DNA of 64,000 nt from Gaiellales bacterium (GTDB taxonomy: Bacteria > Actinomycetota > Thermoleophilia > Gaiellales > JAICJC01): the NCBI GenBank assembly GCA_033856675.1, contig JAWVEN010000032.1, positions 41,081 to 105,080 of the forward strand. Direction: 5' to 3'. The notes under the pieces were generated by a model. The model made no database searches. It worked only from the letters and a program-made list of their open reading frames with translations, and was not told the origin of the DNA. Position numbers and translations under genes: made by a program. Shown piece after piece: positions 20,898 to 38,372 of this stretch (position 1 is its first letter; every line of letters starts with the position of its first letter).

Positions 20898-22592
20898 TCA
20901 CTTCAGCGTCAGATTTGCCGGGCCGCCCTCGGCCACGGTGCCCGCGTACCGGCCGCCGCTCAGCGGCTGGGCGATCACGACGCTCGAGCGAAGCACCGTG
21001 ATCGCGGTGCTGGTCGCGACCATCACGGCGTGTGAGACGACATCGACGGGGTCGACGATACCGGCGTCCACGCCGTCCACCTCGCGGCCGGTGACCGTGT
21101 CGAACGCGAGCCACTCGCGACCCGCGCGCAGGCGGCCGACGACCTCGGGAACGTCCCAGCCGCCATTTCGCGCCAGTACTCGCGCCGGCTCTTCGCACGC
21201 CCGGCGCATGACCTCGAACCCGGCCGCCTCGCCGCCGCCGTGGCCATTCACCTTCGGCGCCTCGAGCGATGCCCCGGCGCGAAGGAGGGCGGCGCCGCCG
21301 CCGGGAACGACGCCCGAAGCCACTGCCCGCTTCACTGCCGCGAGCGCATCGAGACCGCGGCGGAACCGCTCGCGGCGCTCCACGTCGGTCGGCGCGCCGA
21401 TCCGCACCGAGGCGCACCCCGCGCCGGCCAGCCGAGAGCGCCTAGCCTCGAGCAGATCGCGGTCGTGGAGCGAATCCGCATCTCGCGCGTCGGATGCCAG
21501 CGCGGCAACCCGCAAGCGGAGCATCTGCGGGTCCGCGCCGCCGTCGTGAACCGTCGTCGTCGCGCGGCCGACGACGACGCGCCCGGCTGAACCGAGCGCG
21601 CCGGCATGGGCCTTGCCGAACACCACCAGACCCGCCTGGTCCACAACCGTCGCACCGGTGAACACGGCGAGGTCCTCGAGCACCTCCGAGCGGGTCACGC
21701 CGTGACCGGGCGCGACCACCGGGACGCACGTCGCACGCCTGTTCAGGCCGTTGACGGTGATCATCGCGAGGACATCCGCTCCGAAGCCGGTCGCAACGGC
21801 CAGCAGCGGCCGCCCGGTCGCCTGGCAGACCTCGAGCACACGGGAGAACGCGCGCATGTCGGAGACCTCGACGGAGCTGACGAAGACGAGTGCGTCTTGC
21901 AACACGGCCTCGGCGGCGCCGCGGTCGGGGATCAGGTTGGGGTCGAGATAGCCGCCCTTGATCGAGAACGACTCGTCGACGTCGACGGTGACCCCGGCCT
22001 CGTGGCCGCCCTCCTCGAGCAGCACGTTGTCACTCCCCACCCGCTCGACCGCCTCGGCGACCGCCCGGCCGATCTCAACGTCGCCGGCCGCCTGCCGGCC
22101 GACCACCTCGAGCTGCGCCACGGATTCGGCCCGTACCGAGCGCGCCGCCAGGCCGGCACACACCTGCTCGGCGGCGGCCTGCATCCCCCGCGTCACCGAC
22201 ACCGGCTCGTGACCGGCCATCACAACCCGCAGGCCGCCGCGCACCATCGCATCCGACAGCACGATCGCGGTGGTGCTTCCGTCGCCGGTGCCGCGTTTCG
22301 CCATCTTCGCTGCATCGCGGGCGAGGAACACCCCCTGGTTTCGGTACGTGTTCGACGTCAGGATCTCGCGCGCGATGGCATAGCCGTCGTTCCCCAGCAC
22401 CGGCGCGCCGGCCTTGCTGTCCATGGCCGAAACCGAGATCTCCGGCGTCCCGAACCTGCTGTCCATCATGACGACGCGGCCATGCGGGCCGAGCGTGCCC
22501 GAGACGACGCGCGCGACGAGGTTGATGCCGTCGGCGAGGTCACCCCTGGCACGTCCGTCATATCTGATTCCGCGTGCCGGCCGCTGGGGCAT
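20898..22592 (-). CDS. GroEL-like (Cpn60 family) chaperonin homologue, monooxygenase-associated type
   Basis: LGPHGRVVMMD.., KRGTGDGSTTAIVL (compare GDGTTT), ..GVVPGGGAALL.. GGAGGA RBS. ATG lies 2 nt after the upstream stop. Confidence 0.85.
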   Translation of the reverse strand: MPQRPARGIRYDGRARGDLADGINLVARVVSGTLGPHGRVVMMDSRFGTPEISVSAMDSKAGAPVLGNDGYAIAREILTSNTYRNQGVFLARDAAKMAKRGTGDGSTTAIVLSDAMVRGGLRVVMAGHEPVSVTRGMQAAAEQVCAGLAARSVRAESVAQLEVVGRQAAGDVEIGRAVAEAVERVGSDNVLLEEGGHEAGVTVDVDESFSIKGGYLDPNLIPDRGAAEAVLQDALVFVSSVEVSDMRAFSRVLEVCQATGRPLLAVATGFGADVLAMITVNGLNRRATCVPVVAPGHGVTRSEVLEDLAVFTGATVVDQAGLVVFGKAHAGALGSAGRVVVGRATTTVHDGGADPQMLRLRVAALASDARDADSLHDRDLLEARRSRLAGAGCASVRIGAPTDVERRERFRRGLDALAAVKRAVASGVVPGGGAALLRAGASLEAPKVNGHGGGEAAGFEVMRRACEEPARVLARNGGWDVPEVVGRLRAGREWLAFDTVTGREVDGVDAGIVDPVDVVSHAVMVATSTAITVLRSSVVIAQPLSGGRYAGTVAEGGPANLTLK

Positions 22593-22594
22593 GC

Positions 22595-23875
22595 CTATCC
22601 TCCGTTCATCCGGTTGCCGCTGGGCGCGCAGGCCCCATGGAGCGCGTGGTGCTCGAGATCCGAGCGGAACTTCTGCACCGCCGAGTACACGGGTAGGCGG
22701 GGCATCGCGATCAAGCTGCAGATGCCGCCCTGCCCGTTTGCGAAATCGACGACCTCGGGCAGCTTGTCGATCAGCACCGGCGGCGCTCCGCCTTTGATCT
22801 GGCCGACGAGCTTCGCCAGCATGTTGGTCTCCATCCGGCACGGCGGGCACTGGCCGCACTGCTCGCGGGCGAAGAACTCGCAGATCTCGAGCAGGCGCTC
22901 GAGCATGCACTCGTCGTCGCCCATCACCGTGAAGACCGCGCACCCGAGCGCCGAGCCGAGGCTACGGATCGACTCGTGGTCGAGTGGGACGTCGAGCTCT
23001 GCGGCCGTCAGGAATCCCGAGGACGGCCCTCCGGGAAGCACGGCGCGGATCGGCCGCCCGGAGCGAAGCGGTCCCCCGCACGACTCCAGCATCTCGCGCA
23101 CGTTCGTGCCGAGCTCCACCTCGTAGACGCCCGGGCGTTCGAGCTCGTCGCCCAAGGTGCAGAGCACCGTGCCGCTGCTCGACCCGGTACCCAGCTCGCG
23201 GTACCAGTCGGGCCCTTCGCGGAAGATCACTGCAAGCGTCGCCGCCGTCTCGACGTTCAGCACCGCGGTCGGCCGGCGCAGCAGTCCCTCCGTGACGGGG
23301 TACGGCGGGCGCTCGGCGGGCAGCGCGCTCCCACCGCCCAGGAACGCAAGCGCAGCGGTGTCCTCGCCGGAGATGTACGACGCAGGCGCGACGGCCAGGC
23401 GCAGCACGATCTCGCCGTCGGAGCGCTCGCCATCCCCCTCCGCAGCCCATGGGTCGGTGCGGATTCCGCCCGCGGCCGCCGCCGCCTCGACCCGGGCTCC
23501 CGAGGACGGGTAGAGCTCGCTGATGTAGAACACCGCGTCGCGCGCCCCGACCAGCCTCGCAGCGATCAGCGCGCCCTCGACCACCAAGCCTGGGCATTGC
23601 TCCAGCAGCGCCTGGTCCTTGCCGCTGCCTGGCTCGTCCTCCGCCCCGTTCACCACAACGTATTTCTGCTCACCGTCAGCCTCTGAGGCGAGTCGCAGCT
23701 TCGTCCCGGTGGGGAAACCTGCGCCGCCGCGGCCTCGCAACCCGGAGCGTTCGGCCCACTCCAGGCCCTCCTCGACCGGCAGCGCGCCCGCCGCCTCCCA
23801 GCCGGCGTACGACAGCGTGTCGTCACGTCCGAACACCGGGCCGGCGTACATCCGCGGCACTGCCGAAAGGCTCAT
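22595..23875 (-). CDS. NuoF/HoxF-like NAD(P)H-binding FMN and [4Fe-4S] flavoprotein
   Basis: GLRGRGGAGFPTGTK (FMN/NADH site), SLBB-like middle region, and CGQCPPCR...C cluster motif. ATGA overlap with the upstream M20 gene. Confidence 0.85.
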   Translation of the reverse strand: MSLSAVPRMYAGPVFGRDDTLSYAGWEAAGALPVEEGLEWAERSGLRGRGGAGFPTGTKLRLASEADGEQKYVVVNGAEDEPGSGKDQALLEQCPGLVVEGALIAARLVGARDAVFYISELYPSSGARVEAAAAAGGIRTDPWAAEGDGERSDGEIVLRLAVAPASYISGEDTAALAFLGGGSALPAERPPYPVTEGLLRRPTAVLNVETAATLAVIFREGPDWYRELGTGSSSGTVLCTLGDELERPGVYEVELGTNVREMLESCGGPLRSGRPIRAVLPGGPSSGFLTAAELDVPLDHESIRSLGSALGCAVFTVMGDDECMLERLLEICEFFAREQCGQCPPCRMETNMLAKLVGQIKGGAPPVLIDKLPEVVDFANGQGGICSLIAMPRLPVYSAVQKFRSDLEHHALHGACAPSGNRMNGG

Positions 23876-25032
23876 CGCGCCTTCTCGTCGAGCAGGATCT
23901 GCGTGTAGCAGCGGACGGCACGGTAGATGTCCTGCACCTCGACGTGCTCGTCCTCGGTGTGCGCCAGGCGTTCGTCGCCAGGGCCGAGGAACACGGTCAC
24001 CACCCCCAGCCGTCCGAGCACCGACGCATCGGTGACGTACGGCATCGCGCGGGTGACCGGGGGGCGGCCAAGGGCGCGCTCGACCGATCCGGCCACACGA
24101 CCGACGAAGCTGTCGCCGCGGGCGACGGCGACGCCGGGCGCGTCGCGGGTCACCGCCACGGCGCCCCCGCGGCAGCGCCGCTCGATCTGCGCGACGAGTT
24201 CCGCGTGATGCATGCCCGAGACCGTGCGGATGTCGAGGTCGACGGAGCACTCGGCCGGAACGACGTTTCGCGCCACGCCCCCACGCAGGATGTTCAGCGA
24301 GACCGTTGGGCGGCCCAGCACGGGATCGTCCGCGCCTTGCGTGAGGCTTCGCTCGAGATCAGCGAACGGCATCAGCCACTCGAGCGTCTCGAGGATCGCG
24401 TTTTGGCCCTGCTCGGGCTGAGAGCTGTGGGCCGGCACGCCGGTGTTGGTGACCGACAGCCACAGCGCGCCCTTGTGGCCGATGCCGAGGTCGAGCCTGG
24501 TCGGCTCGCCGATCACCATCTCGGTCAGGCCATCGAGGGCGCCCATGTCAAGCAGCGCACTTGCACCGGCGGAGTCGACCTCCTCGGCGGTTGTCACGAT
24601 CAGCGCCACGCCGTCGAGCACGGCCGCGTCCGCCTCGGCGACGTCGCGCAAGGCGACCGCCATCGCCGCGAGCGCGCCTTTCATGTCACACGACCCGCGG
24701 CCGTGCAGGCGCCCGTGCTCAACGGCGCCGGAGAGCGGCGGGCGCGTCCACGCCGCAGCATCGGCAGGGACGGTGTCGACATGGCCGCAGAGGGCAAGCC
24801 GGGCCGGCCCCGTGCCCCATCGGGCAACCAGTCCCGCCGCGACACCATCGTTGCGCAGCAGCTCGAAGGACGCACCGGCGGCTCCGGCGAACCGGCCCAG
24901 CAACTCCAGCCCTTCGACGTTGCCCGCGTCGACCTGGCACGTGTCGATGCGGATCAGCGCCTGCGCCAGCGCAAGAGCATCCATCCCGCTCTCGTGCATC
25001 GGCGGAGGCAGTTCGTCGAGCAGCGAGCTCAT
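23872..25032 (-). CDS. M20 family metallohydrolase (ArgE/DapE-type deacylase)
   Basis: LCGHVDTVP, GRGSCDMKG, ..TTAEEVDS.., HTEDEHV are typical M20 metal- and catalytic-residue contexts. Confidence 0.9.
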   Translation of the reverse strand: MSSLLDELPPPMHESGMDALALAQALIRIDTCQVDAGNVEGLELLGRFAGAAGASFELLRNDGVAAGLVARWGTGPARLALCGHVDTVPADAAAWTRPPLSGAVEHGRLHGRGSCDMKGALAAMAVALRDVAEADAAVLDGVALIVTTAEEVDSAGASALLDMGALDGLTEMVIGEPTRLDLGIGHKGALWLSVTNTGVPAHSSQPEQGQNAILETLEWLMPFADLERSLTQGADDPVLGRPTVSLNILRGGVARNVVPAECSVDLDIRTVSGMHHAELVAQIERRCRGGAVAVTRDAPGVAVARGDSFVGRVAGSVERALGRPPVTRAMPYVTDASVLGRLGVVTVFLGPGDERLAHTEDEHVEVQDIYRAVRCYTQILLDEKAR

Positions 25033-25045
25033 GGCCGGAACGTCG

Positions 25046-25798
25046 TCAGTCCTCGAGCCAGGCCACGGCGCGAATCGGAGAACCGGTGCCGTCCTTGAAG
25101 TTGATCGGCAGGCCCATGTACATGAACCGCTTGCCGAGCAGCAGATCGAGGTTCGTCAGCACCTCGGTGTTCACGATCCCGTACTCGCCGCACACCATGT
25201 GCCCGGAGAACTCGAGGTCGTCGCTGTGGTCGATGGCGAGCTGGTCGATGCCGATATTGACGACGCCGCGCTCGGCCAGCCAGATGGCGCCCTCGCGGCT
25301 GAGCCCCGTGTAGGTGTCGATGAACTCCTTCGTGCCGAACGTGCGGTCGGCATGGCCTGTGTAGAGCAGCACGATGTCGCCCGGGCGGATCTCCTGGCCG
25401 CTCTTTGCGAGCGCATCCTCGAGCACCTCGGGCGTCAGCCAGTCGGGGTGCCGAACGTGCGTCACGTCGAGGCAGATCGCCGACCCGTAATAGAACGCGA
25501 GCGGCGTCTCGTCGATCGACGGGCCGCCGGGGACGTACTCGATCACTGCGTCCGTGTGCGTCCCGGTGTGCTCGCTCATCAGCCAGTTGTGAGCCTCGAA
25601 GCCGACGCTCGTGCCCCAGCGCTTCTTGAACCCCTCGTGATCCTGGTTGACGAACATGAACGGCAGCTGGTGGCCAGGCCAAAGCGGCATGCCCTGCTCG
25701 ATGTTGCGGGACAGGTCGATCAGCTTCAGGCCCCGTTCGAGCAGCTGGTCGCCGCCCTTCGGCGTCGCCCGCCGTCCGGTATCGGTTGCGATGCTCAT
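25046..25798 (-). CDS. cyclase-family (kynurenine formamidase/isatin hydrolase-like) metal hydrolase, variant motif
   Basis: SEHTGTHTDAVIEY matches the HxGTHxD core of the putative-cyclase family but lacks the following PxH. Start at the internal ATG of ORF 25046..25855. Confidence 0.85.
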   Translation of the reverse strand: MSIATDTGRRATPKGGDQLLERGLKLIDLSRNIEQGMPLWPGHQLPFMFVNQDHEGFKKRWGTSVGFEAHNWLMSEHTGTHTDAVIEYVPGGPSIDETPLAFYYGSAICLDVTHVRHPDWLTPEVLEDALAKSGQEIRPGDIVLLYTGHADRTFGTKEFIDTYTGLSREGAIWLAERGVVNIGIDQLAIDHSDDLEFSGHMVCGEYGIVNTEVLTNLDLLLGKRFMYMGLPINFKDGTGSPIRAVAWLED

Positions 25799-25835
25799 GT
25801 CCGCTCCTTCGTCTCGAGATTTGGGCACCGGCGGG

Positions 25836-26186
25836 TCAGAACGACCCCCAGCCACCGGCGTCGAGGATGTTCAGGATGAATCCGGCCGTCGTCTTGTCGG
25901 CAGTTTCCAGGCGCTCCAGGCGCGGCCCGCGGCCGGTCAGGTGCTCCACAAGCTCCGGGACATCCTCCTCCCGGACACCGCAGTACCAGGCACGGTCGGG
26001 GTACACGATCATGTTGGGGCCGATGTCGCAGCCGCCGAAGCACGTGTACTCCTCGAGCTCGACGTCGCCGCCGTCCGGATCGTCGTCGAGCAACCGCTGG
26101 ATCTCGTCGGCAAGCTCCAGCGATCCGCGTGACCGGCAGTCGATGTTGTCGCAGATGAAGAGCTTCTTCGGCTGATCGTCGTCCAT
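25836..26186 (-). CDS. thioredoxin-like [2Fe-2S] ferredoxin (NuoE-type fold)
   Basis: Cys pattern FICDNIDCRSRG ... YTCFGGCDIGPN (C-x4-C ... C-x3-C) followed by PNMIVYPD..WY. Confidence 0.8.
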   Translation of the reverse strand: MDDDQPKKLFICDNIDCRSRGSLELADEIQRLLDDDPDGGDVELEEYTCFGGCDIGPNMIVYPDRAWYCGVREEDVPELVEHLTGRGPRLERLETADKTTAGFILNILDAGGWGSF

Positions 26187-26212: not shown

Positions 26213-26443
26213 TCAACGGTCCAGCACGGCATGGACGAGGGCATGTGTCTCGACGCCGTACTCCGACAGCGACGTTCCGCTGTCGAGCGCGGTGCCGTTG
26301 AAGCTGAGCGATACCGAGCCGGGCGCGCCGGGCTCCTTGAACGCCTCGAGCACGGCTTCCCGTGTCTCGTCCACCGAGCTGGACGGCGACACACCGGGCA
26401 GGGCCCGCGGGGGCAGCTCGTCCGGCACGAGTGCGTAGATCAT
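26213..26443 (-). CDS. small 76-aa protein in the gamma/TmoB position of the hydroxylase operon
   Basis: Lies 12 nt after the alpha stop, with good codon bias. Size and position fit TmoB/gamma-type small subunits. Sequence similarity cannot be confirmed by eye. Confidence 0.45.
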   Translation of the reverse strand: MIYALVPDELPPRALPGVSPSSSVDETREAVLEAFKEPGAPGSVSLSFNGTALDSGTSLSEYGVETHALVHAVLDR

Positions 26444-26455
26444 CGAGACACCCCC

Positions 26456-27958
26456 TCAGTGGCCATGGCCGTTGTGGCCGTTTGCGCCGCCCGGGGCGAA
26501 CAGGTCGCCTCCCAGCGCCGGGTCGTTGATACCGATCTGCTTCAGGAACTCGTCCGGGTCGTCGGGCATGACGCCGTCGAGCACGAGGTCGACGATCGTC
26601 TTGGCGCCCTTGTACTTCTCCGGCTCGTTCATGAAGATCTCGCGGCACGGCCGCGAGCAGAACCAGTACGTGCGCCCTTCGAGCTCGACCGGCCCCTCGA
26701 TCATCGGGCCGTGCTCGTCCTGGAACATGCACGCGACCTGGCACAGGTTGCAGACCGGCACGAGCCCGGCGTTCGCCACGTCACGGCCGCCCCGCACGTC
26801 GTCCCAGAACCGGCCGACCATCTGTGGCCAGTCCGGGTACTTCTCGGTCAGCCACTCGCGATCCTCGTCGTCGGGCTGGAACATCTTGAACCAGAGCATG
26901 TCCTTGCGCTGGTACAGGTACTTCCAGACCACGTGCGAGAGCTGGTCCATGTCGTCCAGCATGTATTCGAGGTACGCCGGCTCCTTGATGCCATACGGAC
27001 CGAGGTCGGCGACGAGGCCGCCGATGAAATCGTCCACGAAGTACTTCTGGAATGCCTCCTTGTACGACATCACCTTGTTCTTCGCGAAGTAGTCGAAGAA
27101 GATCGAGCCGCCGAGGGCGTCCACGCGGTACAGGCGCCACGTCCACTTGTCGAGCCAGCCCTGGATGATGGGCAGGTTGCGCGAGTCCTCCTCGAGCAGC
27201 GTGCGCATCATCGACTGGCCGATCGCCATGTGACGGGTCTCGTCGGATTGCGTCGTCAGCTGCAGCTGCGACCACGCGTACTCGTAGTTCGCCGCCCCGA
27301 CGGCCGGCAGCGCGACGAAGTTCAGGTTGGTGAAGCCGATCTCGAGCACGACATTTGCGGCGATGATCGCCTCGAACGGGTTCGCCGTCAGGATGTCCTC
27401 GAAGCAGTGGCGGATGCCCTGGTACAGCCAGTGGTTCTGAAACAGCGTGGCCCAGCCGCTGAAGCCGGGCAGCTTGCGGTTTGCATACCGCAGGTAATGG
27501 GCGTAGTTCTGCGCGTGGCGCAGCTCGTCGATCGACTGGTACAGCGACGCCGCGCGAAGAGCGGGCGCCGGCGAGTACCGCGCGATGGCCATGTGGTCCT
27601 TGCACGTCTCGTACTCGGTCTGCCCCTGACCGCAGGCGAACAGCTTCATGCCTTCGAGCCAGGTGGCCTCGACGCGCGACAGATAGTCGTACCGGGCCGC
27701 GTGGTCGAAGACCATGTGGAGGCTCTCCTCCTTCTTCTCCTGAACCTTGACGTAGTCCTTGTAGAAGAGGCGGAACGGGTCGTCGAACTTGTCCCAGTCG
27801 CTGAAGTGCACGCCCTCGGCATGCTCGGGCGGATACATCTCCTCCTTGGGGACATAGCTCGGCTCCCAGCCGAGGTCCCGGGTGAAGTCCTTGTACTGGT
27901 CCTTGATGTTCTGCTGCGTCGCTTCCTGAACGCCGACGCGACTGGGCCTGGTGCTCAT
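26456..27958 (-). CDS. soluble diiron monooxygenase hydroxylase large (alpha) subunit, phenol/toluene hydroxylase type
   Basis: 500 aa. Ligand motifs are E115..(30)..E145-LR-H148 (SIDELRHAQ) and E206..(34)..E240-TR-H243 (QSDETRHMA). C-terminal Cys-rich domain: PVCNLCQVAC..YWFCSRPCREIF. Confidence 0.9.
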   Translation of the reverse strand: MSTRPSRVGVQEATQQNIKDQYKDFTRDLGWEPSYVPKEEMYPPEHAEGVHFSDWDKFDDPFRLFYKDYVKVQEKKEESLHMVFDHAARYDYLSRVEATWLEGMKLFACGQGQTEYETCKDHMAIARYSPAPALRAASLYQSIDELRHAQNYAHYLRYANRKLPGFSGWATLFQNHWLYQGIRHCFEDILTANPFEAIIAANVVLEIGFTNLNFVALPAVGAANYEYAWSQLQLTTQSDETRHMAIGQSMMRTLLEEDSRNLPIIQGWLDKWTWRLYRVDALGGSIFFDYFAKNKVMSYKEAFQKYFVDDFIGGLVADLGPYGIKEPAYLEYMLDDMDQLSHVVWKYLYQRKDMLWFKMFQPDDEDREWLTEKYPDWPQMVGRFWDDVRGGRDVANAGLVPVCNLCQVACMFQDEHGPMIEGPVELEGRTYWFCSRPCREIFMNEPEKYKGAKTIVDLVLDGVMPDDPDEFLKQIGINDPALGGDLFAPGGANGHNGHGH

Positions 27959-27965
27959 AGATCCG

Positions 27966-28295
27966 TCACCCTTCCGTACTCGCTTGCGCGTGTTGGTCTT
28001 CGATCCAGCTCAGCGTCACACCGGCCTCGTCCATGCGGACGATGTAGCCGGCATAGTTGGCGAGAATCACCTGCAGCTCGCGAGTGTCCCAGCGGCGGCC
28101 GAGTGCGTCGCTGACGTCGGCGCACTCGAACTGGAGCCTTCCCGGCGCGGAGATGTTGAGCTGTCCGGGCAGCGGCTCGACGATCGCATTCGGGGTGCTC
28201 TTGACAACCGCTTCTGCGATCGCGTCTGCCTCCTCGCCTCCCATCAGCTCGAGTCGCGCCTGTGCAACGAACCTCGGGCTCGCCGTATCTGTCAT
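27966..28295 (-). CDS. MmoB/DmpM-family monooxygenase effector (coupling) protein
   Basis: 109 aa. ..AIAEAVVKSTPNAIVEPLPGQLNISAPGRL......V.DALGRRWDTRELQV.. parallels DmpM. ATGA overlap with the beta gene. Confidence 0.8.
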   Translation of the reverse strand: MTDTASPRFVAQARLELMGGEEADAIAEAVVKSTPNAIVEPLPGQLNISAPGRLQFECADVSDALGRRWDTRELQVILANYAGYIVRMDEAGVTLSWIEDQHAQASTEG

Positions 28296-29338
28296 GACGC
28301 CTCGCTTCCCACCGGCGCGGGACGGTCCTGGAGGAGCGTGCCGGAGACTCCCGCTGAGTCCAGCACGTCGGCTGCGAGGTTGCGCGCCTCCGCCAGGGAG
28401 GAGTCGAAGTTCTGCTCCTTGCCGACGACAGAGAACACCGGCCCGAGCGCCTCGACGGAGCGAAGCGCGAGCGGGGCCCAACTGTCGATCCACTCCGCCG
28501 TGGTGGTGGCGTTCTCCTCGGACTCCTCACTCAGCATCGCCGCCAGAGCCGCTCCCCACGCCCAGTGCCGCTCCTCGTCGCCGTACACCGAGTAGGCGAA
28601 GTGCGGCAGGACGATGTCCGAGTGCGCGTTGCCGAGATCGGTCAGCGTGCGGTACATCACGCGCTGCAGCATCGGTTCGAGCACGAGGTTGGTGGCAACG
28701 ACCACCTCGCCCCAGTCCTTCAGCACACACACGCGCTCGAGGTACTCGCGCATCGGCTGGAACATCGGGTCCTGGAGCCACTGGGTGCGGTAGCCGCCGA
28801 ACCCGCCGTGCTCGGCCTCGAGGTCGTGCGTCCACTCCGCGATCCGCTGCGTGTGGCGCAGCTCGTCGAACACCTGCAACACGGACGGGTTGGTGATGAG
28901 GCTCGAGATCGCGAACCGTCCGACGTACTGGTGGGCCATGCTGATGCCCCACTCGGCGAACCGCATCGGCGCGAAGAACATGCGCAGCGTCTCGACCCAC
29001 TCAGGGTCGAGGTAGCGCACGGCGCGCTCTTTCCGCGCCGCGGTGATCACGATCTCGAGCGCGGCCTCACGCTCGGATTGCAGCTCGTGGTAGGAGCGGT
29101 ACGTCAGCCGGTTGGGATCGCGGAACGACTCCCAGCGAGCCGACTTCCACCGCGTCTTGGTCGGGTCCCAGTACCCCAGCTTGTAGTGCTCGGGATAGTG
29201 GTAGTACGCGCCCTCGTTGGGGAGGTCCGGATACTTGCCGCGGAACGTCTCGCCCCACTGCACATACGCGGTGACTTCCTCGTACACGTCCGGCCTTCGA
29301 CGCTCTCCCTCGAGGTGCTCAAATGTCTTTCGCGCCAT
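28292..29338 (-). CDS. diiron hydroxylase beta-position subunit (348 aa) that retains a complete E/EXXH/E/EXXH ligand set
   Basis: Same family fold signature. E129..(30)..E159-LR-H162 (VFDELRHTQ) and E221..(34)..E255-ER-H258 (YGDEERHWA). GAAGGA RBS before the ATG at 29338. Confidence 0.85.
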   Translation of the reverse strand: MARKTFEHLEGERRRPDVYEEVTAYVQWGETFRGKYPDLPNEGAYYHYPEHYKLGYWDPTKTRWKSARWESFRDPNRLTYRSYHELQSEREAALEIVITAARKERAVRYLDPEWVETLRMFFAPMRFAEWGISMAHQYVGRFAISSLITNPSVLQVFDELRHTQRIAEWTHDLEAEHGGFGGYRTQWLQDPMFQPMREYLERVCVLKDWGEVVVATNLVLEPMLQRVMYRTLTDLGNAHSDIVLPHFAYSVYGDEERHWAWGAALAAMLSEESEENATTTAEWIDSWAPLALRSVEALGPVFSVVGKEQNFDSSLAEARNLAADVLDSAGVSGTLLQDRPAPVGSEAS

Positions 29339-29605: not shown

Positions 29606-31111
29606 CTACGTGTGACTGACCGGAGAGATGCCTGCGTACTCACGCGCGAAGCGGGCCATCTCCGACCGGTCGGTGTGCTGGTAGACGAGGTGGGCAACGT
29701 ACGCCGGCGGCGTTGCGTTCACGTTCTCGAACAAGGCAACGCGGTTCGCGTGGGCGCCGCTCAGCAGATCCCATACGAAGCTGAAGAACTGGTTCTTCTC
29801 GCGCGCGGTGACCCCGGTACCGGGGAGGTACTCCTCCAGCATCGGGCCGAACTCGGGGTGGTCCCAGACCTTCTCGGGCCAGCGGGAGATCAGCGCCTGT
29901 CCGCACAGGTCCTTCATCAGGTAGGTGATCCGCGGGTACTCCTTGATCGAGTACAGCCGGCCCGCCGTGACGAGCGGCGGATTGGGCACCTGGACGCCGC
30001 ACCACTCCACGGCCTCCTCGATCGTGGCCACGGTGTAGGCGCGCAGGGTCTGGGCGTACAGCGTGATCTCGGCGACCGCGTTCTGGACGCCGGGGATGAC
30101 GTCCGTGCCAAGGATCTCCGTGATCGCCTGCGCCACGCCGGCGAAGATCTCGGCCCGGAAGCCGAGCCGCATCATGATCGACCACAGCATGTACGCGCCG
30201 CTCTCGTAGTACACGTCGAGCAGTGCGCGGTTGCGCACGCTGAAGACGAACTCCTTGGGGATGAAGACGTCGTCGAACAGATAGATCTGATCTGTCTCCT
30301 CCCCACGGGCCTCGACCGGGTGGTCGCCGGGGTTGGGGTTCGGCGGCACCGTCGGCTCGCGCAGCACGAGTGACAGTCCCGCGCTGTTCACCGGGACGCC
30401 CGCCCAGATCGCCGCGTCGTCGGTCACGCCCTCGCCGAGCACGGTCGACAGCGTCAGCATGTGGCAGAGGGCGCCGATGCTGCCGGCAACCTTTGCCCCC
30501 CGCACGACGATGCCGTCGGGCCGGTCCTCGACGATCCGCAGCTGTCCCGGCTTCTCGTTCTTCGGGATCCTGCGATCGGACTGCGGGTCGGCGATCAGGT
30601 CGGTGCTGAGCAGGTTGAGGTCGCCGGACATGGTGACGTACTTGCGCATGTTCTCGGCGAACTCCGGGTTCTCCGCCTCGACCCGGTCGATCACGGCCAG
30701 GAACCCGAGCGACATCATCGGCCCGTAGTCGGGCGGCCGGCCGTACATGCCGAGGGTCTCCAGCGTGATGCGGCGGGTCGAGTCCCGCTTCGCCGACAGG
30801 TGCTCCTTGGTCGTCGGCACCTGCCAGCCCACCGCGCGCCGGGCCCCCGCTTCGTCGACGTACGTCAGCGTGTCGCGGGTGGCGGGGTCGAACTGCAGGT
30901 CGAGCACGCGCGCGATCGAGTTCACCGCCGTCGTCGCCGGATGGGTGGTGACGTCCTCGATCTCCTCTCCGGACGCGCTGACCACCCGCCGGCCGTCGCG
31001 CAGCGTCTGCCTGTACTGGTCACCCGTCAGGAGGTGCGGATCGGCGCTCCCGTCCAGCGCCTCCACGACCTTGTCGATTCCGAGCCGCTTGGCGTCGGTC
31101 GCGATGCTCAT
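29606..31111 (-). CDS. HpaB-family (4-hydroxyphenylacetate 3-hydroxylase-like) flavin-dependent oxygenase component
   Basis: About 501 aa with the N- and C-terminal HpaB architecture (..RVLDLQFDP.., ..RIVEDRPDGIVVRGAKVAGS.., ..YPRITYLMKDLCGQALI..). GAAGGGA RBS. No flavin reductase gene nearby. Confidence 0.8.
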   Translation of the reverse strand: MSIATDAKRLGIDKVVEALDGSADPHLLTGDQYRQTLRDGRRVVSASGEEIEDVTTHPATTAVNSIARVLDLQFDPATRDTLTYVDEAGARRAVGWQVPTTKEHLSAKRDSTRRITLETLGMYGRPPDYGPMMSLGFLAVIDRVEAENPEFAENMRKYVTMSGDLNLLSTDLIADPQSDRRIPKNEKPGQLRIVEDRPDGIVVRGAKVAGSIGALCHMLTLSTVLGEGVTDDAAIWAGVPVNSAGLSLVLREPTVPPNPNPGDHPVEARGEETDQIYLFDDVFIPKEFVFSVRNRALLDVYYESGAYMLWSIMMRLGFRAEIFAGVAQAITEILGTDVIPGVQNAVAEITLYAQTLRAYTVATIEEAVEWCGVQVPNPPLVTAGRLYSIKEYPRITYLMKDLCGQALISRWPEKVWDHPEFGPMLEEYLPGTGVTAREKNQFFSFVWDLLSGAHANRVALFENVNATPPAYVAHLVYQHTDRSEMARFAREYAGISPVSHT

Positions 31112-31130
31112 GTGTGATCCCTTCGTCCGG

Positions 31131-32627
31131 TCAAATCGCTGCGTCTCCCTCGACCATGGGCCGCATGTCCGCGGCCTCGACGATCGACTCCTCACGTCCG
31201 GGGTGATTGCGCTCCGGGAACAGCATCAGGCTCGCGCCGTAGATCACGGCCGAGATCACGGCCGCGCTGGTGAAGCTGAGGTCGATGCCCTTGTAGGCGT
31301 CGGCCCACGGGCCGACCCAGAGCGTCGTGTTGATGCAGAGGATGCCGACGGTGACCGCCGGGATGAACGCGGCTGCGGCCCGCAGGTTCACGCCGCTGGT
31401 GAACCAGTACGCCCCGCCCGTCTGGCCGAGGTTGAAGAGCTGCAGGTCATGTACGTGGTAGCGCTTCCGGGCGTAGTAGAACCCGATCAGGCAGATCACC
31501 ATCCATGGCGTGCAGATCACGATCAGGAAGAGCAGGAACGCGCTGACGGTGTCGAACGCACTCCAGACCAGGGCGCCCAGGTAGACGAGCGCCACTGCCA
31601 CGGCACTGATCAAGAGCGTGGCGGGGATGCGCTGCAGCCGCGGAATCAGCGACGACATGTCGAGACCGGTGCCGTAGAGGCAGATCGCGCCCTGGGCGAG
31701 GCTCCCGAAGAAGCCGATCGCCATCAGCCCGACGACGTACCAGCTCGGCGATGTGGCGACGAGCCCGTCCATGAAGAGCAGCGTCGGGTCCATCATCGTG
31801 GCCATGTACGCGGCCCAGACGAGCGCCACCCAGCAGCCGACGAACATCCCGAGGCCCGCCGCCGTCGCGACCGACCGGTCGCTCCACTTCTTCGGAGAGA
31901 TGTATCTGGCGTAGTCGTTGGCAAACGGCGTGTAGCTGATCGGCAGCGATGCGGCCGTCACCATCGCGAGCACCCAGGTCGGCCAGAAGTCGCCGAGCAG
32001 GTAGGCGCCGCCGTGATAGCCGGCGTCGAAGTCGCCGAGCTTGGCGAAGAAGCCGACGACCAGCAGAGCCCCGACCACCGGGATCACGATCTTCTGCGCG
32101 GCCACCACGTTGGCGTGGCCATAGATCGCGAGCGTGATCACGATCGCACTGATGATCCCGTACATCAGTCCGCGCGCGACGTTGCCGTCGGGCGTGTCGA
32201 GCAGGCGGTGGGCGCCGGCGACGACCGCGTCGCCGCCGGTCCAGATCGTCAGCGCCGCAAAGCCCATGGCGATGAACAGCGCCTGCAGCGAGCCGACGAC
32301 ACGGCCCAACAGGCCGAAGTGCGCACCGGACGTGACAGCGCTGTTCGTCCCGCTGTACGGGCCGAGCAGCGAGAACGGCGCGAACGGAAGACAGCCGACG
32401 ACGAGGCCGACGGTGATCGCGGCCACCGAGCTCCACCAGCCGAGGCCGAAGGCGACCGGCAGCCACCCGAGCACGATGATGCCGAAGCACATCTGCGCGC
32501 CGACCCACACGTAGAACAGGTTCGTCGGGGTCGAGTGCCGGTCTTCGAACGGGATGTAATCGATGCCGTGGGTCTCGATCTTTCCGACCTCGTCAACGGC
32601 GGTTGGGTGCTGCCCAGATGTGCTCAT
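31131..32627 (-). CDS. NCS1-family nucleobase/hydantoin-type permease (purine-cytosine permease-like)
   Basis: 12-TM profile. N-terminus ..IETHGIDYIPFEDRHSTPTNLFYVWVGAQM.. is typical of CodB/NCS1 transporters. Confidence 0.9.
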   Translation of the reverse strand: MSTSGQHPTAVDEVGKIETHGIDYIPFEDRHSTPTNLFYVWVGAQMCFGIIVLGWLPVAFGLGWWSSVAAITVGLVVGCLPFAPFSLLGPYSGTNSAVTSGAHFGLLGRVVGSLQALFIAMGFAALTIWTGGDAVVAGAHRLLDTPDGNVARGLMYGIISAIVITLAIYGHANVVAAQKIVIPVVGALLVVGFFAKLGDFDAGYHGGAYLLGDFWPTWVLAMVTAASLPISYTPFANDYARYISPKKWSDRSVATAAGLGMFVGCWVALVWAAYMATMMDPTLLFMDGLVATSPSWYVVGLMAIGFFGSLAQGAICLYGTGLDMSSLIPRLQRIPATLLISAVAVALVYLGALVWSAFDTVSAFLLFLIVICTPWMVICLIGFYYARKRYHVHDLQLFNLGQTGGAYWFTSGVNLRAAAAFIPAVTVGILCINTTLWVGPWADAYKGIDLSFTSAAVISAVIYGASLMLFPERNHPGREESIVEAADMRPMVEGDAAI

Positions 32628-32661
32628 CGGATCGACCCTTTCCTCACTATTCCGGTGCTGC

Positions 32662-33411
32662 TCAGGACAGATCTCCTCGCAACGCGACCGCGCGCACCGG
32701 CGAACCGGTGCCCGCGCGGATGTTCAGCGGCAGCCCGAGGAAGAAGAACCGTGTTCCGGCAACCTTGTCGAGGTTCGTCAAACTCTCGGTATTCACGATG
32801 CCGTACTGCTTGCAAATTTGGTGCGCCGAAAACTCGAGATCGGTGCTCTTGTCAATCGACAGGTTGTCGGTGCCGATGTTGACGACGCCGGCCTTCGCCA
32901 GGAACTCGGCGCCCTCGAGATTCAGGCCGGGATACTCCTCGGCGTACTTCAAGGTCGGGAACACGGTGTCGCCGTATCCCGTGTGCATCAGCACGATGTC
33001 GCCGCGCTCGATCGCGAGGCCGCTGCTCTCGAGCGACTCGCGCAGCATCTCCTCGGTGATCCACCGGTCGGCCGTCAGGGGCGCCAGATCGAGGCAGATC
33101 GCGGGGCCGTACCAGTAGGACAGCGGAGACTCGTCCAGGTGCGGCCCCGACTCGTCGTACTCGAACACGGCGTCGGTGTGCGTCCCGCAGTGCTCGCTGA
33201 TCAGCAGGTTGTGGGCTTCGAACCCGCAGCTGGTCTTCCAGATCTCCTTGAACTCGTCGTGCGTCTGGTTGCGCATGATGAAGGTCTTCTGATGACCGAA
33301 CCACTGGGGCATGCCCTCGTAGATGGGGCGGGTGAGATCGACGACCTCGACCCCTCGGTCAAGCAGGTCGCTTCCCAGCAGTGGAAGGGAGCTCGGCGTG
33401 GTTGCTGACAC
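32662..33411 (-). CDS. cyclase-family metal hydrolase, paralogue of 25046..25798
   Basis: SEHCGTHTDAVFEY, the same variant motif. Alignable over the full length with the first copy (roughly half the residues identical by eye). Confidence 0.85.
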   Translation of the reverse strand: MSATTPSSLPLLGSDLLDRGVEVVDLTRPIYEGMPQWFGHQKTFIMRNQTHDEFKEIWKTSCGFEAHNLLISEHCGTHTDAVFEYDESGPHLDESPLSYWYGPAICLDLAPLTADRWITEEMLRESLESSGLAIERGDIVLMHTGYGDTVFPTLKYAEEYPGLNLEGAEFLAKAGVVNIGTDNLSIDKSTDLEFSAHQICKQYGIVNTESLTNLDKVAGTRFFFLGLPLNIRAGTGSPVRAVALRGDLS

Positions 33412-33439
33412 TGTTCGTTCCTCCTCGTCGACCGTTTGC

Positions 33440-33931
33440 TCAGTCCGTGACCACTGCGATGACTTCGACCTCGATCAGAAAGCCGTCGGACATGAACCCG
33501 TCGACACGCACGGCTGTTCCACACGGCCCCGGGTCCGCCAGGTACTCCATGCGCACCTTGGTCATGCGTCGCCAGAAGTCGCCCGCCTCATCCTCAGGGC
33601 CGTCGAACGTGTAGTACGTGTTGATCTTGACCACGTCCTTCCACGACGCCCCCGCCTCTTCGAGAACGCGGGTGATGTTCTCGAAGGTGTTGCGCGTCTG
33701 GACTTCGATGTCGCCGCGGCCGATCACGTCGCCGTTCTCATCCGCGGAGAGCTGGCCGCCGACGAAGACGAGATCCCCGATCCGCCAACCCTGCGAGAAC
33801 GGCGACGGGATGCTCCAGTCCCAGTGGTTCTCCGGCATCAGCCGGCGCTTGGGGCCGAGCCTGGCCGTGACCATCCGCGCCGGGCCGTTACCGTCGGTCG
33901 CCTCGGTGGCGCTCCCCGTGCTGTCGTTCAC
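33440..33931 (-). CDS. RidA/YjgF family protein, paralogue of 20420..20869
   Basis: MPENHWDWSIPSPFSQGW..LVFVGGQLSADENGDVIGRGDIEVQTRNTFENITRVLEEAGASW.. parallels the first copy. Start may be an internal Met. Confidence 0.9.
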   Translation of the reverse strand: MNDSTGSATEATDGNGPARMVTARLGPKRRLMPENHWDWSIPSPFSQGWRIGDLVFVGGQLSADENGDVIGRGDIEVQTRNTFENITRVLEEAGASWKDVVKINTYYTFDGPEDEAGDFWRRMTKVRMEYLADPGPCGTAVRVDGFMSDGFLIEVEVIAVVTD

Positions 33932-34021
33932 TCAGGCTCCTCCTCGCGACTCGCGTTACAACACCGCAGAATCGGCAAGATTTATCATGTGCTGTAAGGT
34001 TCGTCAAGGGGCGTTTTTCGC

Positions 34022-34993
34022 TTGCCGCAAGTGATCGGCGTCCTGGCGGAGTTGTGCAAAGCTGCCGGTGGAGGGATCAGCGCAATGCCACGTGCACCAG
34101 GCGAAATGAGGCCTGAGAGTCAGCGACAGGCGCCGCTCTCGAGCGTGAGCGCGCCTGAGCCCGTTCCCGGTGGGCGGCGCCGCATTCCCGGGTCGGACGA
34201 CCGGCCCGCGGGCGTGTACATCAACCAGGCGGCCCGCATCGTCGGGGTGTCCGCGTCGCTGATCCGGATCTGGGAGAACGAGGGCCTGGTCACCCCGGCT
34301 CGGACGCAGTCCGGCTACCGCGTGTTCTCGCCGCAGGACATCGAGCGCCTGCGCCACATCCGCGACCTGATCCAGCGAGACGGCCTCAATGCCGCCGGAG
34401 CGCGGCGCTTGCTCAGCAGCACCGGCGCCGAGAACGGCGCCGAGCGGCCGCGGTCGATGGCCGTCGGCGAGAAGCTGCGGATGCTCCGACGCCGGCGCGG
34501 CCTGTCATTGCGCGCCCTCGCGGCCATGACCGGCCTCAGCCCGTCGTCGATCAGCGCCATGGAGCGCGGCCTCAGCTCACCTACGGTCGGCTCGCTGCAC
34601 CGGCTGGCAATCGCGTTCGAGATCACGGTGCCCGCCCTGATGGGCACGCCGGAGCCCCACGAGCGGCTGGTTGTGCGACCGCATGAGCGCCCTCTGCTGT
34701 TCGGCGCGCCCGGGGTGAAGATGGAGAACCTCTACGACGTCGACACGATCCTGCAGTCGATGGTGATCACCGTCGAGCCGGGGGCGGGCAGCGAGGAGTC
34801 CTATGCCCACGAAGGTGAGGAGGTGCTCTACATGATCGAGGGCGAGATCGACGTCACGCTCGACGAGATCGACACGTACCGGCTCCGCCCCGGCGACGCG
34901 ATGACCTTCGCCAGCACGCGCCCGCACCGGTGGACGAATCCCGGCGACGTCACGGCGGCGATCGTCTGGATCAATACGCCGCCGACCTTCTGA
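34022..34993 (+). CDS. three-module regulator: MerR-type HTH + XRE-type HTH + cupin sensor domain
   Basis: MerR: VYINQAARIVGVSASLIRIWENEGLVTPARTQSGYRVFSPQDIERLRHIRDL. XRE: VGEKLRMLRRRRGLSLRALAAMTGLSPSSISAMERGLSSPTVGSLHRLA. Cupin: HEGEEVLYMIEGEIDV....Y.L.PGDAMTF....PHRW.N. Start uncertain: 34022, 34085 or 34106. Confidence 0.85.
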   Translation: MPQVIGVLAELCKAAGGGISAMPRAPGEMRPESQRQAPLSSVSAPEPVPGGRRRIPGSDDRPAGVYINQAARIVGVSASLIRIWENEGLVTPARTQSGYRVFSPQDIERLRHIRDLIQRDGLNAAGARRLLSSTGAENGAERPRSMAVGEKLRMLRRRRGLSLRALAAMTGLSPSSISAMERGLSSPTVGSLHRLAIAFEITVPALMGTPEPHERLVVRPHERPLLFGAPGVKMENLYDVDTILQSMVITVEPGAGSEESYAHEGEEVLYMIEGEIDVTLDEIDTYRLRPGDAMTFASTRPHRWTNPGDVTAAIVWINTPPTF

Positions 34994-35000
34994 CCGATCG

Positions 35001-36221: not shown

Positions 36222-36925
36222 ACCGCGGGCACGGTTGCCGGCTCCTGGAAGGCGCGGATCTTGGAGGTGCGCAGCCCGAGGCGGACGAGGCTCTCCGCCA
36301 GCACCACGGCTGCCGGCACGCCTTCGACCACCGGCACGCCCAGCCGCTCCTCCAGCGCCGCCCTCGTCTCCAGCATCAGGCCGCAGCCGAGGCACAGCAC
36401 TTCGGCGCCCCCCGCGACGGCCCGGCGGCCGGCCTCCTCCAGCTGCGCCAATGCCGACAGCGGATCCTCACCGAGGTCGACCACCTCCGCCCCGCTGGCC
36501 TCGATCGACGCACAACGCGACTCGATGCCGTAATGGCGGAGCAGGTCGATCGTCCCGGGAACGCCGCGGTCGAGCGTCGCGACCACACCGAACCGGTGCC
36601 CGAGCGACATTGCGAGGGAGAAGCTCGCTTCGGCGATCCCGATCACCGGCGCATCGGTCAGCTCGCGCGAGGCGTAGAGCCCCGGATCGCCGAAGCAGCC
36701 GATGATCGCGGCGTCGAACGTCCCCCGGCGCTCCAGGATGCAGCGGGCGACACCGGCCGCGGCCAGCGCCTCGTCGTAGAAGCCGTCGATGAACGGCACG
36801 CCGTCATCGACCGTGGCGCCGATGATCTCGGTGCCCGGGCCGGCGACCTCCTGGGCGGCCACCACCATGCTGTCGGTCATCGACGAGGTCGTGTTCGGGT
36901 TGATGAGAAGGATCTGCATGGTCAC
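36218..36925 (-). CDS. Asp/Glu/hydantoin racemase family protein
   Basis: ILLINPNTTSSMTD.., ..IIGCFGDPGL.., ..LCLGCGLM.. (two catalytic-Cys contexts). ATGA overlap with the hydantoinase stop. Confidence 0.85.
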   Translation of the reverse strand: MTMQILLINPNTTSSMTDSMVVAAQEVAGPGTEIIGATVDDGVPFIDGFYDEALAAAGVARCILERRGTFDAAIIGCFGDPGLYASRELTDAPVIGIAEASFSLAMSLGHRFGVVATLDRGVPGTIDLLRHYGIESRCASIEASGAEVVDLGEDPLSALAQLEEAGRRAVAGGAEVLCLGCGLMLETRAALEERLGVPVVEGVPAAVVLAESLVRLGLRTSKIRAFQEPATVPAV

Positions 36926-38349: not shown

Positions 38350-38372
38350 GTCAGTGCCTTTGCTCGAAGGGT

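What the first reader, a model, noticed from the sequence alone, without database searches (positions are those of the whole stretch)
28292..29338. Beta-position hydroxylase subunit keeps all six diiron ligands at canonical spacing
In the 348-aa protein encoded first in the operon I read:
- E129, then 30 residues to E159-L-R-H162 (VFDELRHTQ, about nt 28853-28867)
- E221, then 34 residues to E255-E-R-H258 (YGDEERHWA, about nt 28565-28579)

The alpha subunit has exactly the same spacing (E115/E145xxH148 and E206/E240xxH243). That spacing matches the published TmoA ligands E104/E134/H137/E197/E231/H234.

Beta subunits of characterised SDIMOs (MmoY, TmoE/TouE, DmpL) share the four-helix-bundle fold but are not reported to bind iron. 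A hydroxylase with two potentially metallated subunit types would be unusual. It could be an ancestral-like state, a second active site or a metal-dependent assembly role.
Basis: partly seen in the sequence, partly recalled or inferred. Interest (0 to 1): 0.75.

Follow-up and report, generated by a model that had tools for sequence, protein, structure and literature searches.

The report
Monooxygenase beta subunit keeps diiron ligands
The normally metal-free "beta" subunit of a soil actinobacterial diiron monooxygenase keeps all six metal-binding residues of its catalytic sister subunit, and so do about ninety relatives, which points to an undescribed enzyme lineage that probably carries a second metal centre of unknown role.

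Summary
The 348-aa protein at 28292-29338 (-) has E129, E159-x-x-H162, E221 and E255-x-x-H258. These align, in register, with E115/E145/H148/E206/E240/H243 of the alpha subunit encoded 330 nt downstream.

By sequence and by predicted fold it is a beta subunit of the TouE/TmoE type, not a second alpha.

All six residues are invariant in 28 full-length clade members (48-93% identity). They are also present in 59 of 62 members of a second clade from Acidimicrobiia (about 36% identity).

Among 123 full-length beta-like representatives from an exhaustive search:
- 3 keep 6/6 positions
- 3 keep 5/6
- 117 keep 4 or fewer, and there Lys/Arg usually fill the site

Ligand-rich betas always sit beside a thioredoxin-like [2Fe-2S] ferredoxin and a NuoF-like flavoprotein. 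The usual Rieske ferredoxin or FNR-type reductase is absent. A 2025 review of SDIMO groups 1-7 does not mention this lineage.

Best reading: an ancestral dimetal (probably diiron) site kept under purifying selection in beta. Beta lacks the alpha Thr-Asn pair, so I infer a structural or auxiliary role rather than a second hydroxylation site.

Metal binding was not tested.

The parts
28292..29338 (-). Beta (TouE/TmoE-type) hydroxylase subunit, 348 aa, with the full E/ExxH/E/ExxH set
   Evidence: PF02332, E 2.7e-60. Best PDB sequence hits are beta chains: TouE 1t0q_B E 8e-39 and TmoE E about 1e-34, against alphas at about 1e-11. AF2 model pLDDT 84, pTM 0.83. Best Foldseek hits are also beta chains, TM 0.77-0.83.
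28952..28954 (-). E129 codon (helix B, AEWG)
   Evidence: Invariant in the clade.
28853..28867 (-). D158-E159-L-R-H162 (helix C)
   Evidence: Invariant in the clade.
28676..28678 (-). E221 codon (helix E, VLEP; followed by Q225 where alpha has Thr)
28565..28579 (-). D254-E255-E-R-H258 (helix F)
   Evidence: Invariant in the clade.
27966..28295 (-). MmoB/DmpM-type coupling protein, 109 aa; its ATG overlaps the beta stop codon (ATGA)
   Evidence: PF02406, E 3.6e-17. Coordinates derived from the ORF list.
26456..27958 (-). Alpha catalytic subunit, 500 aa, with the six ligands, F-T210-N211 and a YHS-like C-terminus
   Evidence: PF02332 plus YHS. Best PDB hit is phenol hydroxylase PhN 3u52_A, E 3e-82. 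Ligands.
26213..26443 (-). 76-aa ubiquitin-like protein, probably a gamma subunit analogous to TmoB
   Evidence: Weak ubiquitin Pfam hit, below the cut-off. A canonical TmoB also hits a ubiquitin-like family. A similar-looking N-terminal domain (judged by eye, not tested) is fused to beta in the sister clade.
25836..26186 (-). Thioredoxin-like [2Fe-2S] ferredoxin (NuoE-like), 116 aa
   Evidence: PF01257. NCBIfam 2Fe-2S ferredoxin and nuoE_fam hits, all below cut-off.
25046..25855 (-). Cyclase / arylformamidase-like hydrolase inside the operon
   Evidence: PF04199, E 1e-35. Conserved at this position in L002 and L003.
23872..25032 (-). M20 family amidohydrolase
   Evidence: PF01546 plus PF07687.
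22595..23875 (-). NuoF-like NADH/FMN/[4Fe-4S] protein, the presumed reductase
   Evidence: PF01512, PF10531 and PF10589. nuoF_fam E 2e-85, below cut-off.
20898..22592 (-). Cpn60/GroEL-like chaperonin at the end of the operon
   Evidence: PF00118, E 4e-43. Conserved in L002 and L003.

Best explanation
The gene encodes the beta subunit of a non-canonical soluble diiron monooxygenase (SDIMO) from a soil actinobacterium of the Thermoleophilia/Gaiellales type. Characterised beta subunits have lost the metal site they inherited when alpha and beta arose by gene duplication. This lineage has kept it: four carboxylates and two histidines on helices B, C, E and F, in register with the alpha site.

The residues are held by purifying selection. 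The simplest reason is that they bind a carboxylate-bridged dimetal centre, probably diiron. The hydroxylase would then carry four dimetal centres per alpha2-beta2 instead of two.

Beta has Gln-Pro/Arg where every alpha has Thr-Asn on helix E. It has Pro or Gly directly after the helix-E Glu. It lacks the alpha C-terminal domain, and the operon has only one coupling protein. I therefore infer that the beta centre is a structural, assembly or auxiliary site. In canonical betas the same role would be played by Lys/Arg salt bridges. I do not think it is a second hydroxylation site.

Shown: the sequence facts, the conservation, the rarity and the beta-lineage membership. Inferred: metal occupancy and the role of the site.
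For: 1. All six positions align with the alpha ligands. They sit on four long helices predicted at pLDDT 94-97.
2. The model superposes on alpha chains at rmsd 3.1-3.6 A over 280-297 columns.
3. The six are invariant in 28 clade sequences at 48-93% identity, and still invariant when P0040 (36% identity) is added. They are present in 59 of 62 full-length members of the Acidimicrobiia P0040 clade.
4. Among 123 full-length beta-like representatives, only 3 keep 6/6 and 3 keep 5/6.
5. The formal charge of the six positions is -4 only in the ligand-rich groups. It is -1 to +2 in 113 of 123, where Lys/Arg occupy the site (typical patterns xERKxH and EKxE..). An uncompensated buried cluster of four carboxylates is unlikely to be stable without cations (inference).
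6. It belongs to the beta lineage: 164 bits to a TmoE-like beta and 140 to the L005 beta, against 100 to its own alpha and 56 to a TmoA-like alpha.
7. There is no gene conversion from alpha. The longest shared DNA word is 17 nt, and nucleotide identity over the ligand helices (0.47-0.59) is close to the overall 0.51.
8. Every alpha examined keeps EEHEEH plus (F/Y)TN, so alpha remains the canonical catalytic subunit.
Against: - There are no metal data of any kind.
- In the sister clade of Ubl-beta fusions the set is degenerate: EEHDEH, or EEHEKH with Lys at the E255 position. The system as a whole can therefore tolerate an imperfect beta site.
- Gln225 and the flanking residues are themselves invariant. 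That could reflect a specialised, active site rather than a purely structural one.
- The argument for a structural role is negative evidence (missing Thr-Asn, a single coupling protein).
Confidence: 0.55

Rival explanations
1. The beta site is a second catalytic diiron centre. The hydroxylase would then have two kinds of active subunit, for example carrying out two successive oxidations of an N-heterocyclic substrate. This would be a surviving intermediate of the alpha/beta duplication.
For: The ligand set is complete and invariant, as are the second-sphere residues D158, R161, D254, R257 and S250, which match MmoX D143, R146, D242, R245 and S238. Q225 is invariant at the alpha Thr position in both ligand-rich clades. 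Beta is unusually close to the alphas: 100 bits, against 40 bits for a canonical TmoA/TmoE-like pair.
Against: Beta has no Thr-Asn pair, while every alpha keeps it. Pro or Gly follows the helix-E Glu. The operon has one coupling protein and no second ferredoxin. The D..R/D..R second-sphere residues are also kept by most metal-free betas, so they are not diagnostic. The sister clade tolerates Lys at the E255 position.
Confidence: 0.2
2. The six residues are a metal-free relic, held in place by a hydrogen-bond or salt-bridge network or by the interface with alpha. Beta works as an ordinary scaffold subunit.
For: No characterised beta binds metal (my own knowledge of the MMOH, ToMOH, T4moH and PHH structures). 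The sister clade shows E-to-D and E-to-K changes. Metal-free betas also retain the D-x-x-R motifs.
Against: Four carboxylates with no compensating Lys/Arg at these positions is a pattern seen only in the ligand-rich clades. Other betas neutralise the site. The six positions stay invariant down to 36% identity, while the same positions were lost across at least 117 other representative clusters.
Confidence: 0.2
3. The gene is not a true beta. It is either a recently duplicated and truncated alpha, or a beta patched by gene conversion from alpha.
For: Its similarity to its own alpha is unusually high (27% identity, 100 bits). The DELRH codons are identical in the two genes.
Against: Beta chains are the best sequence and fold matches. 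The N-terminal 60 residues align with the TouE N-terminus. It scores higher against TmoE-like betas (164 bits) than against any alpha. No shared DNA tract exceeds 17 nt, and nucleotide identity is not raised over the ligand helices. The same state occurs in three divergent clades.
Confidence: 0.03

Closest known systems
TouE / TmoE, the beta subunits of toluene/o-xylene and toluene-4-monooxygenase hydroxylases (PDB 1t0q_B, 3dhg_B)
   Same: Best sequence match (E 8e-39, about 30% identity) and best fold match (TM 0.77-0.83). Similar length, and the N-terminal segment aligns. Encoded next to a coupling protein and an alpha subunit.
   Different: TouE has F/H..W/K/A..H at the six positions, and a TmoE-like beta has G/E..R/K/C..H. 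The window protein has E/E..H/E/E..H. Canonical operons carry a Rieske ferredoxin and TmoB (L006). This operon carries a thioredoxin-like ferredoxin and a NuoF-like protein.
SDIMO alpha subunits (TmoA, TouA, PhN, MmoX)
   Same: The same six ligands with the same 30/34 spacing on helices B, C, E and F. The same D-E-x-R-H motifs.
   Different: Beta has no Thr-Asn after the helix-E Glu and no C-terminal domain of about 200 aa or YHS motif. It is 348 aa against about 500. It scores lower against alphas than against betas.
Phenol hydroxylase (dmpKLMNOP / PHH, SDIMO group with beta-coupling-alpha gene order)
   Same: The gene order is beta, then coupling protein, then alpha, then a small subunit. 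The window alpha is closest to PhN (E 3e-82) and has the YHS-like C-terminus.
   Different: No DmpK-like gene and no FNR-type reductase. The beta is closer to TouE than to PhL (E 8e-39 against 6.5e-19). The operon also encodes a chaperonin, a cyclase and an M20 enzyme.
PaaA/PaaC of phenylacetyl-CoA epoxidase
   Same: A ferritin-like catalytic subunit paired with a paralogous structural subunit of the same fold (PMC4498308). This is the general precedent for one active and one degenerate paralogue.
   Different: That review assigns all four non-cluster iron atoms to the two PaaA molecules and calls PaaC structural. Here the 'structural' paralogue keeps the full motif.

Membership tests
SDIMO hydroxylase beta subunit (TmoE/TouE/DmpL/MmoY) | Methane/phenol/alkene hydroxylase four-helix-bundle domain (PF02332) | tested here: met
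   E 2.7e-60, 204 bits against a cut-off of 24.4.
SDIMO hydroxylase beta subunit (TmoE/TouE/DmpL/MmoY) | Closer in sequence and fold to solved beta chains than to alpha chains | tested here: met
   TouE 137 bits against PhN alpha 48 bits. Foldseek ranks 1-32 are all beta chains.
SDIMO hydroxylase beta subunit (TmoE/TouE/DmpL/MmoY) | About 300-390 aa, without the alpha C-terminal domain, and encoded beside alpha and a MmoB/DmpM coupling protein | tested here: met
   348 aa, with gene order beta, coupling protein, alpha. The same order occurs in L002 and L003.
SDIMO hydroxylase beta subunit (TmoE/TouE/DmpL/MmoY) | Degenerate metal site (a characteristic of all characterised members, not a formal definition) | tested here: not met
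   EEHEEH is retained. TouE is FHWKAH and MmoY is EKND...
SDIMO alpha (catalytic) subunit | Six diiron ligands E...ExxH x2 on helices B, C, E and F | tested here: met
SDIMO alpha (catalytic) subunit | Conserved Thr-Asn on helix E (MmoX T213/N214, TmoA T201/N202) | tested here: not met
   Beta has Q225-R226 (Q-P in most of the clade). All seven alphas examined have TN.
SDIMO alpha (catalytic) subunit | About 500 aa with a C-terminal domain | tested here: not met
   348 aa. hhalign covers alpha positions 4-316 only.
Canonical SDIMO groups 1-7 (operon level) | NADH reductase of the FNR/[2Fe-2S] type, with or without a Rieske ferredoxin | tested here: not met
   Pfam scans of the operon and of 10 selected flanking ORFs between 13 and 42 kb found none, but the window as a whole was not fully annotated. 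A thioredoxin-like ferredoxin plus a NuoF-like protein are present instead, and the same holds in L003, L005, L007 and L008. The review PMC11825192 lists reductase/ferredoxin components for groups 1-7 and does not mention NuoF.
Ferritin-like diiron-carboxylate proteins | Two E...ExxH motifs on a four-helix bundle | tested here: met
Ferritin-like diiron-carboxylate proteins | Bound dinuclear metal centre | not testable with these tools
   Needs purified protein.

The most novel reading that the evidence does not exclude
The hydroxylase has two catalytically competent diiron subunit types. The beta centre activates O2, or carries out a second distinct oxidation of the N-heterocyclic substrate. 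This lineage would then be a living intermediate between an ancestral homodimeric diiron oxygenase and the modern alpha(active)/beta(dead) SDIMO architecture, fed by a NuoE/NuoF-type electron-transfer module.
Probability: 0.17. Interest if true: 0.9.

Novelty: new variant of a known kind. Interest (0 to 1): 0.7.

Why it matters
SDIMO alpha and beta subunits are accepted to be paralogues (Leahy et al. 2003, as summarised in PMC11825192). In every enzyme studied so far beta is treated as an iron-free scaffold. A lineage in which beta keeps the whole site gives an experimental handle on three questions:
- how the heteromeric hydroxylase evolved
- what the beta four-helix bundle is for
- whether salt bridges replaced metals in canonical betas

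The lineage comprises about 90 sequence clusters in Thermoleophilia, Acidimicrobiia and relatives. It is also marked by an unprecedented reductase pair (thioredoxin-like [2Fe-2S] ferredoxin plus a NuoF-like protein). In the window's clade and the Ubl-fusion sister clade it sits in catabolic neighbourhoods of the N-heterocycle or hydantoin type. It may therefore be a new SDIMO group with new chemistry and possible biocatalytic use.

Tried and rejected
- Chance: rejected.
- Misassigned alpha or gene conversion from alpha: rejected.
- 'Betas commonly keep these residues': rejected. This rests on the survey of the best 150 representatives from an exhaustive HMMER search and on a cultured Rhodococcus plasmid beta at 36% identity, which reads LERKSS.
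- Rooted NJ tree to prove a basal position: the point estimate puts the ligand-rich betas as a basal grade. A 100-replicate bootstrap does not resolve it: the window clade falls outside all ligand-poor betas in 33 of 100 replicates. My first NJ run was invalid because saturated distances gave NaN values.
A second profile without window-clade sequences found the Acidimicrobiia clade.
- Literature: five searches found no report of a ligand-bearing beta or of a NuoF-type SDIMO reductase. The HpdABCDE paper (PMC5960968), which describes an 'atypical' SDIMO acting on 2-hydroxypyridine, is not held. I could not check whether that enzyme belongs to this lineage.
- The genome scan returned only two MAG loci.
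- The promoter/terminator scan was uninformative.
- Sequencing-run search: soil metagenome DNA only, no RNA.

Full report
**What is there.**
Window 28292-29338 (-) encodes a 348-aa protein. The ORF can be extended to 387 aa, but homologues start at MARKTFEHL and a GAAGGA lies just upstream of that ATG. It carries one Pfam domain, PF02332, the methane/phenol/alkene hydroxylase domain (E 2.7e-60).

It opens a tightly packed minus-strand cassette:
- beta
- MmoB/DmpM coupling protein (27966-28295; its ATG overlaps the beta stop codon)
- alpha (26456-27958; PF02332 plus a YHS-like C-terminus)
- a 76-aa ubiquitin-like protein
- a thioredoxin-like [2Fe-2S] ferredoxin
- a cyclase/arylformamidase-like protein
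- an M20 amidohydrolase
- a NuoF-like protein with FMN and [4Fe-4S] domains
- a Cpn60-like chaperonin

**Checking the observation.**
The residues and coordinates are as stated: E129, E159/H162 (DELRH, 28853-28867), E221 and E255/H258 (DEERH, 28565-28579). The spacings are 30 and 34 residues. The alpha subunit has E115/E145/H148/E206/E240/H243 with the same spacings. MmoX has the same spacing (E114/E144/H147/E209/E243/H246, quoted in PMC12917321).

BLASTP of beta against its own alpha aligns all six positions (27% identity, E 7e-28). So does a profile-profile comparison of the beta clade with seven alphas (hhalign probability 99.9%, E 1.8e-35).

An AlphaFold2 model (pLDDT 84, pTM 0.83) places the residues on four long helices: 125-142, 146-177, 209-238 and 244-272. 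These are predicted at pLDDT 94-97. The model superposes on solved alpha chains at rmsd 3.1-3.6 A over 280-297 columns. I had no access to the model coordinates, so I did not measure side-chain convergence directly.

**Is it really a beta?**
Yes. The best solved-structure sequence hits are TouE (E 8e-39) and TmoE (about 1e-34). Alphas score about 1e-11. Foldseek ranks 1-32 are all beta chains, with TM 0.77-0.83 for TouE.

In pairwise BLASTP it scores 164 bits against a canonical TmoE-like beta, 100 against its own alpha and 56 against a TmoA-like alpha. The 100 bits against its own alpha is still far more than the 40 bits between a canonical TmoA-like/TmoE-like pair. This beta has therefore diverged less from the alpha state than canonical betas have.

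Gene conversion does not explain this. The longest shared DNA word is 17 nt (the DELRH codons). Nucleotide identity over the ligand helices (0.47-0.59) is close to the overall 0.51.

**Conservation.**
A word-indexed search found 31 close relatives at 54-93% identity, from soil metagenomes and from Thermoleophilia and Gaiellales MAGs. All full-length members keep EEHEEH. In 28 clade sequences only 22.5% of core positions are invariant, yet all six ligand positions are. Synonymous codon differences occur at these positions.

An exhaustive HMMER search of 1.84 billion representative proteins gave 562 hits. Of the 123 full-length beta-like proteins among the best 150:
- 3 have 6/6
- 3 have 5/6
- 117 have 4 or fewer, mostly 1-2

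One of the 6/6 representatives, P0040 (36% identity), leads a second large clade from Acidimicrobiia MAGs. In that clade 59 of 62 full-length 90%-identity clusters are EEHEEH.

A third clade has an N-terminal domain fused to beta that looks ubiquitin-like by eye (not tested). It reads EEHDEH or EEHEKH, so it is partly degenerate.

Characterised betas lack the set:
- TouE: F/H..W/K/A..H
- MmoY: E/K..N/D/lost
- a cultured Rhodococcus plasmid beta: LERKSS

**Charge argument (inference).**
The six positions carry a formal charge of -4 only in the ligand-rich groups. In 113 of 123 representatives the charge is -1 to +2, because Lys/Arg occupy former ligand positions (typical patterns xE-R-K-x-H and E-K-x-E-..). 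Canonical betas appear to have swapped metal ions for salt bridges. Where no such swap has occurred, a cation is the obvious counter-charge.

**Context.**
Every ligand-rich beta whose neighbourhood I could read sits with an alpha that keeps EEHEEH plus (F/Y)TN, one coupling protein, a thioredoxin-like [2Fe-2S] ferredoxin and a NuoF-like protein. This covers the window, L002, L003, L005, L007 and L008.

The canonical comparator L006 has TmoA, TmoB, a Rieske ferredoxin, TmoD and TmoE.

None of the window operon proteins I scanned reaches an NCBIfam cut-off. The 2025 review of SDIMO groups 1-7 mentions neither beta ligands, nor NuoF, nor these taxa. Five literature searches found no prior report. 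The library is incomplete, and the HpdABCDE paper was not available.

**Evolutionary placement.**
An NJ tree rooted on alphas puts the ligand-rich betas as a basal grade, with the ligand-poor betas nested above them. The bootstrap does not resolve this. Retention from the alpha/beta ancestor remains the parsimonious reading, because six matching residues in homologous positions are unlikely to be re-invented. A basal position, however, is not demonstrated.

**Mechanism.**
Most likely (0.55) beta binds a carboxylate-bridged dimetal centre that has been kept by selection. I favour a structural, assembly or auxiliary role for four reasons:
- beta has Gln-Pro/Arg where all alphas keep the Thr-Asn pair
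- Pro or Gly directly follows the helix-E Glu
- there is one coupling protein
- the sister clade tolerates Lys at the E255 position

A second catalytic site (0.2) is not excluded, and the invariance of Q225 is notable. A metal-free relic (0.2) is possible but fits the charge pattern and the depth of conservation poorly. A misassigned alpha is essentially excluded.

**Verdict.**
I classify it as a new variant of a known kind, and probably the signature of an undescribed SDIMO group.

Noticed in passing
window 25836-26186 (-) and 22595-23875 (-): The operon has no Rieske ferredoxin and no FNR-type reductase. It encodes a thioredoxin-like [2Fe-2S] ferredoxin (NuoE-like) and a NuoF-like FMN/[4Fe-4S] protein instead. 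The same pair accompanies every ligand-rich beta examined (L002, L003, L005, L007, L008). This looks like an undescribed electron-transfer chain for an SDIMO.
   Followed up: partly
window 26213-26443 (-); P0041, P0046, P0049, P0181 (L005 10001-11260, L008 7178-8506): A 76-aa ubiquitin-like ORF follows alpha and is probably a TmoB-like gamma subunit. In a sister clade, beta carries an N-terminal extension of about 90 aa that looks like the same kind of domain (judged by eye from the sequences, not tested by a domain search). If so, this small protein may associate physically with beta.
   Followed up: partly
window 20898-22592 (-): A Cpn60/GroEL-like gene closes the operon. It is conserved in L002 and L003. 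To my knowledge it resembles the dedicated chaperonins of actinobacterial propane/acetone monooxygenase clusters.
   Followed up: no
window 23872-25855, 29606-38481: The neighbourhood looks like catabolism of an N-heterocycle or hydantoin. It holds an HpaB-like flavin monooxygenase, an NCS1 nucleobase-type permease, two cyclase/arylformamidase-like proteins, RidA, two M20 amidohydrolases, a hydantoin-racemase-like protein, a hydantoinase-like amidohydrolase, and a regulator whose homologues in L003, L005 and L008 are MerR/XRE-cupin proteins (34022-34993, +; the window copy was not itself scanned). The substrate of the SDIMO is probably not a hydrocarbon.
   Followed up: partly
window 26456-27958 vs 28292-29338: The subunits have mosaic affinities. 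Alpha is closest to phenol hydroxylase PhN (E 3e-82), with ToMO/T4MO alphas at about 1e-53. Beta is closest to TouE/TmoE (E 8e-39), with PhL at 6.5e-19.
   Followed up: no
L007 15288-16582: In the Acidimicrobiia locus the NuoF-like gene is called as two ORFs (187 and 251 aa). This could be a frameshift, an assembly error or a genuine split. That operon also inserts a 311-aa protein with no Pfam hit and a Meth_synt_2-like gene between alpha and the coupling protein.
   Followed up: no
survey of beta-like representatives: Canonical betas show recurrent patterns at the former ligand positions: x-E-R-K-x-H in the TmoE-like group and E-K-x-E-W/R-x in the MmoY-like and related groups. This suggests metals were replaced by Lys/Arg salt bridges, possibly more than once (the tree does not resolve how often). 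It could be tested on the solved structures.
   Followed up: partly
window 18686-20451 (-): Two adjacent IclR-family regulator genes lie directly downstream of the chaperonin gene. The first has only the C-terminal effector domain above threshold.
   Followed up: no
P0029 (364 aa, 36.8-kb contig): This homologue is 93% identical over only 40% of the query and then diverges (ligand pattern EEHEGR). It is probably a frameshifted or chimeric gene call.
   Followed up: no
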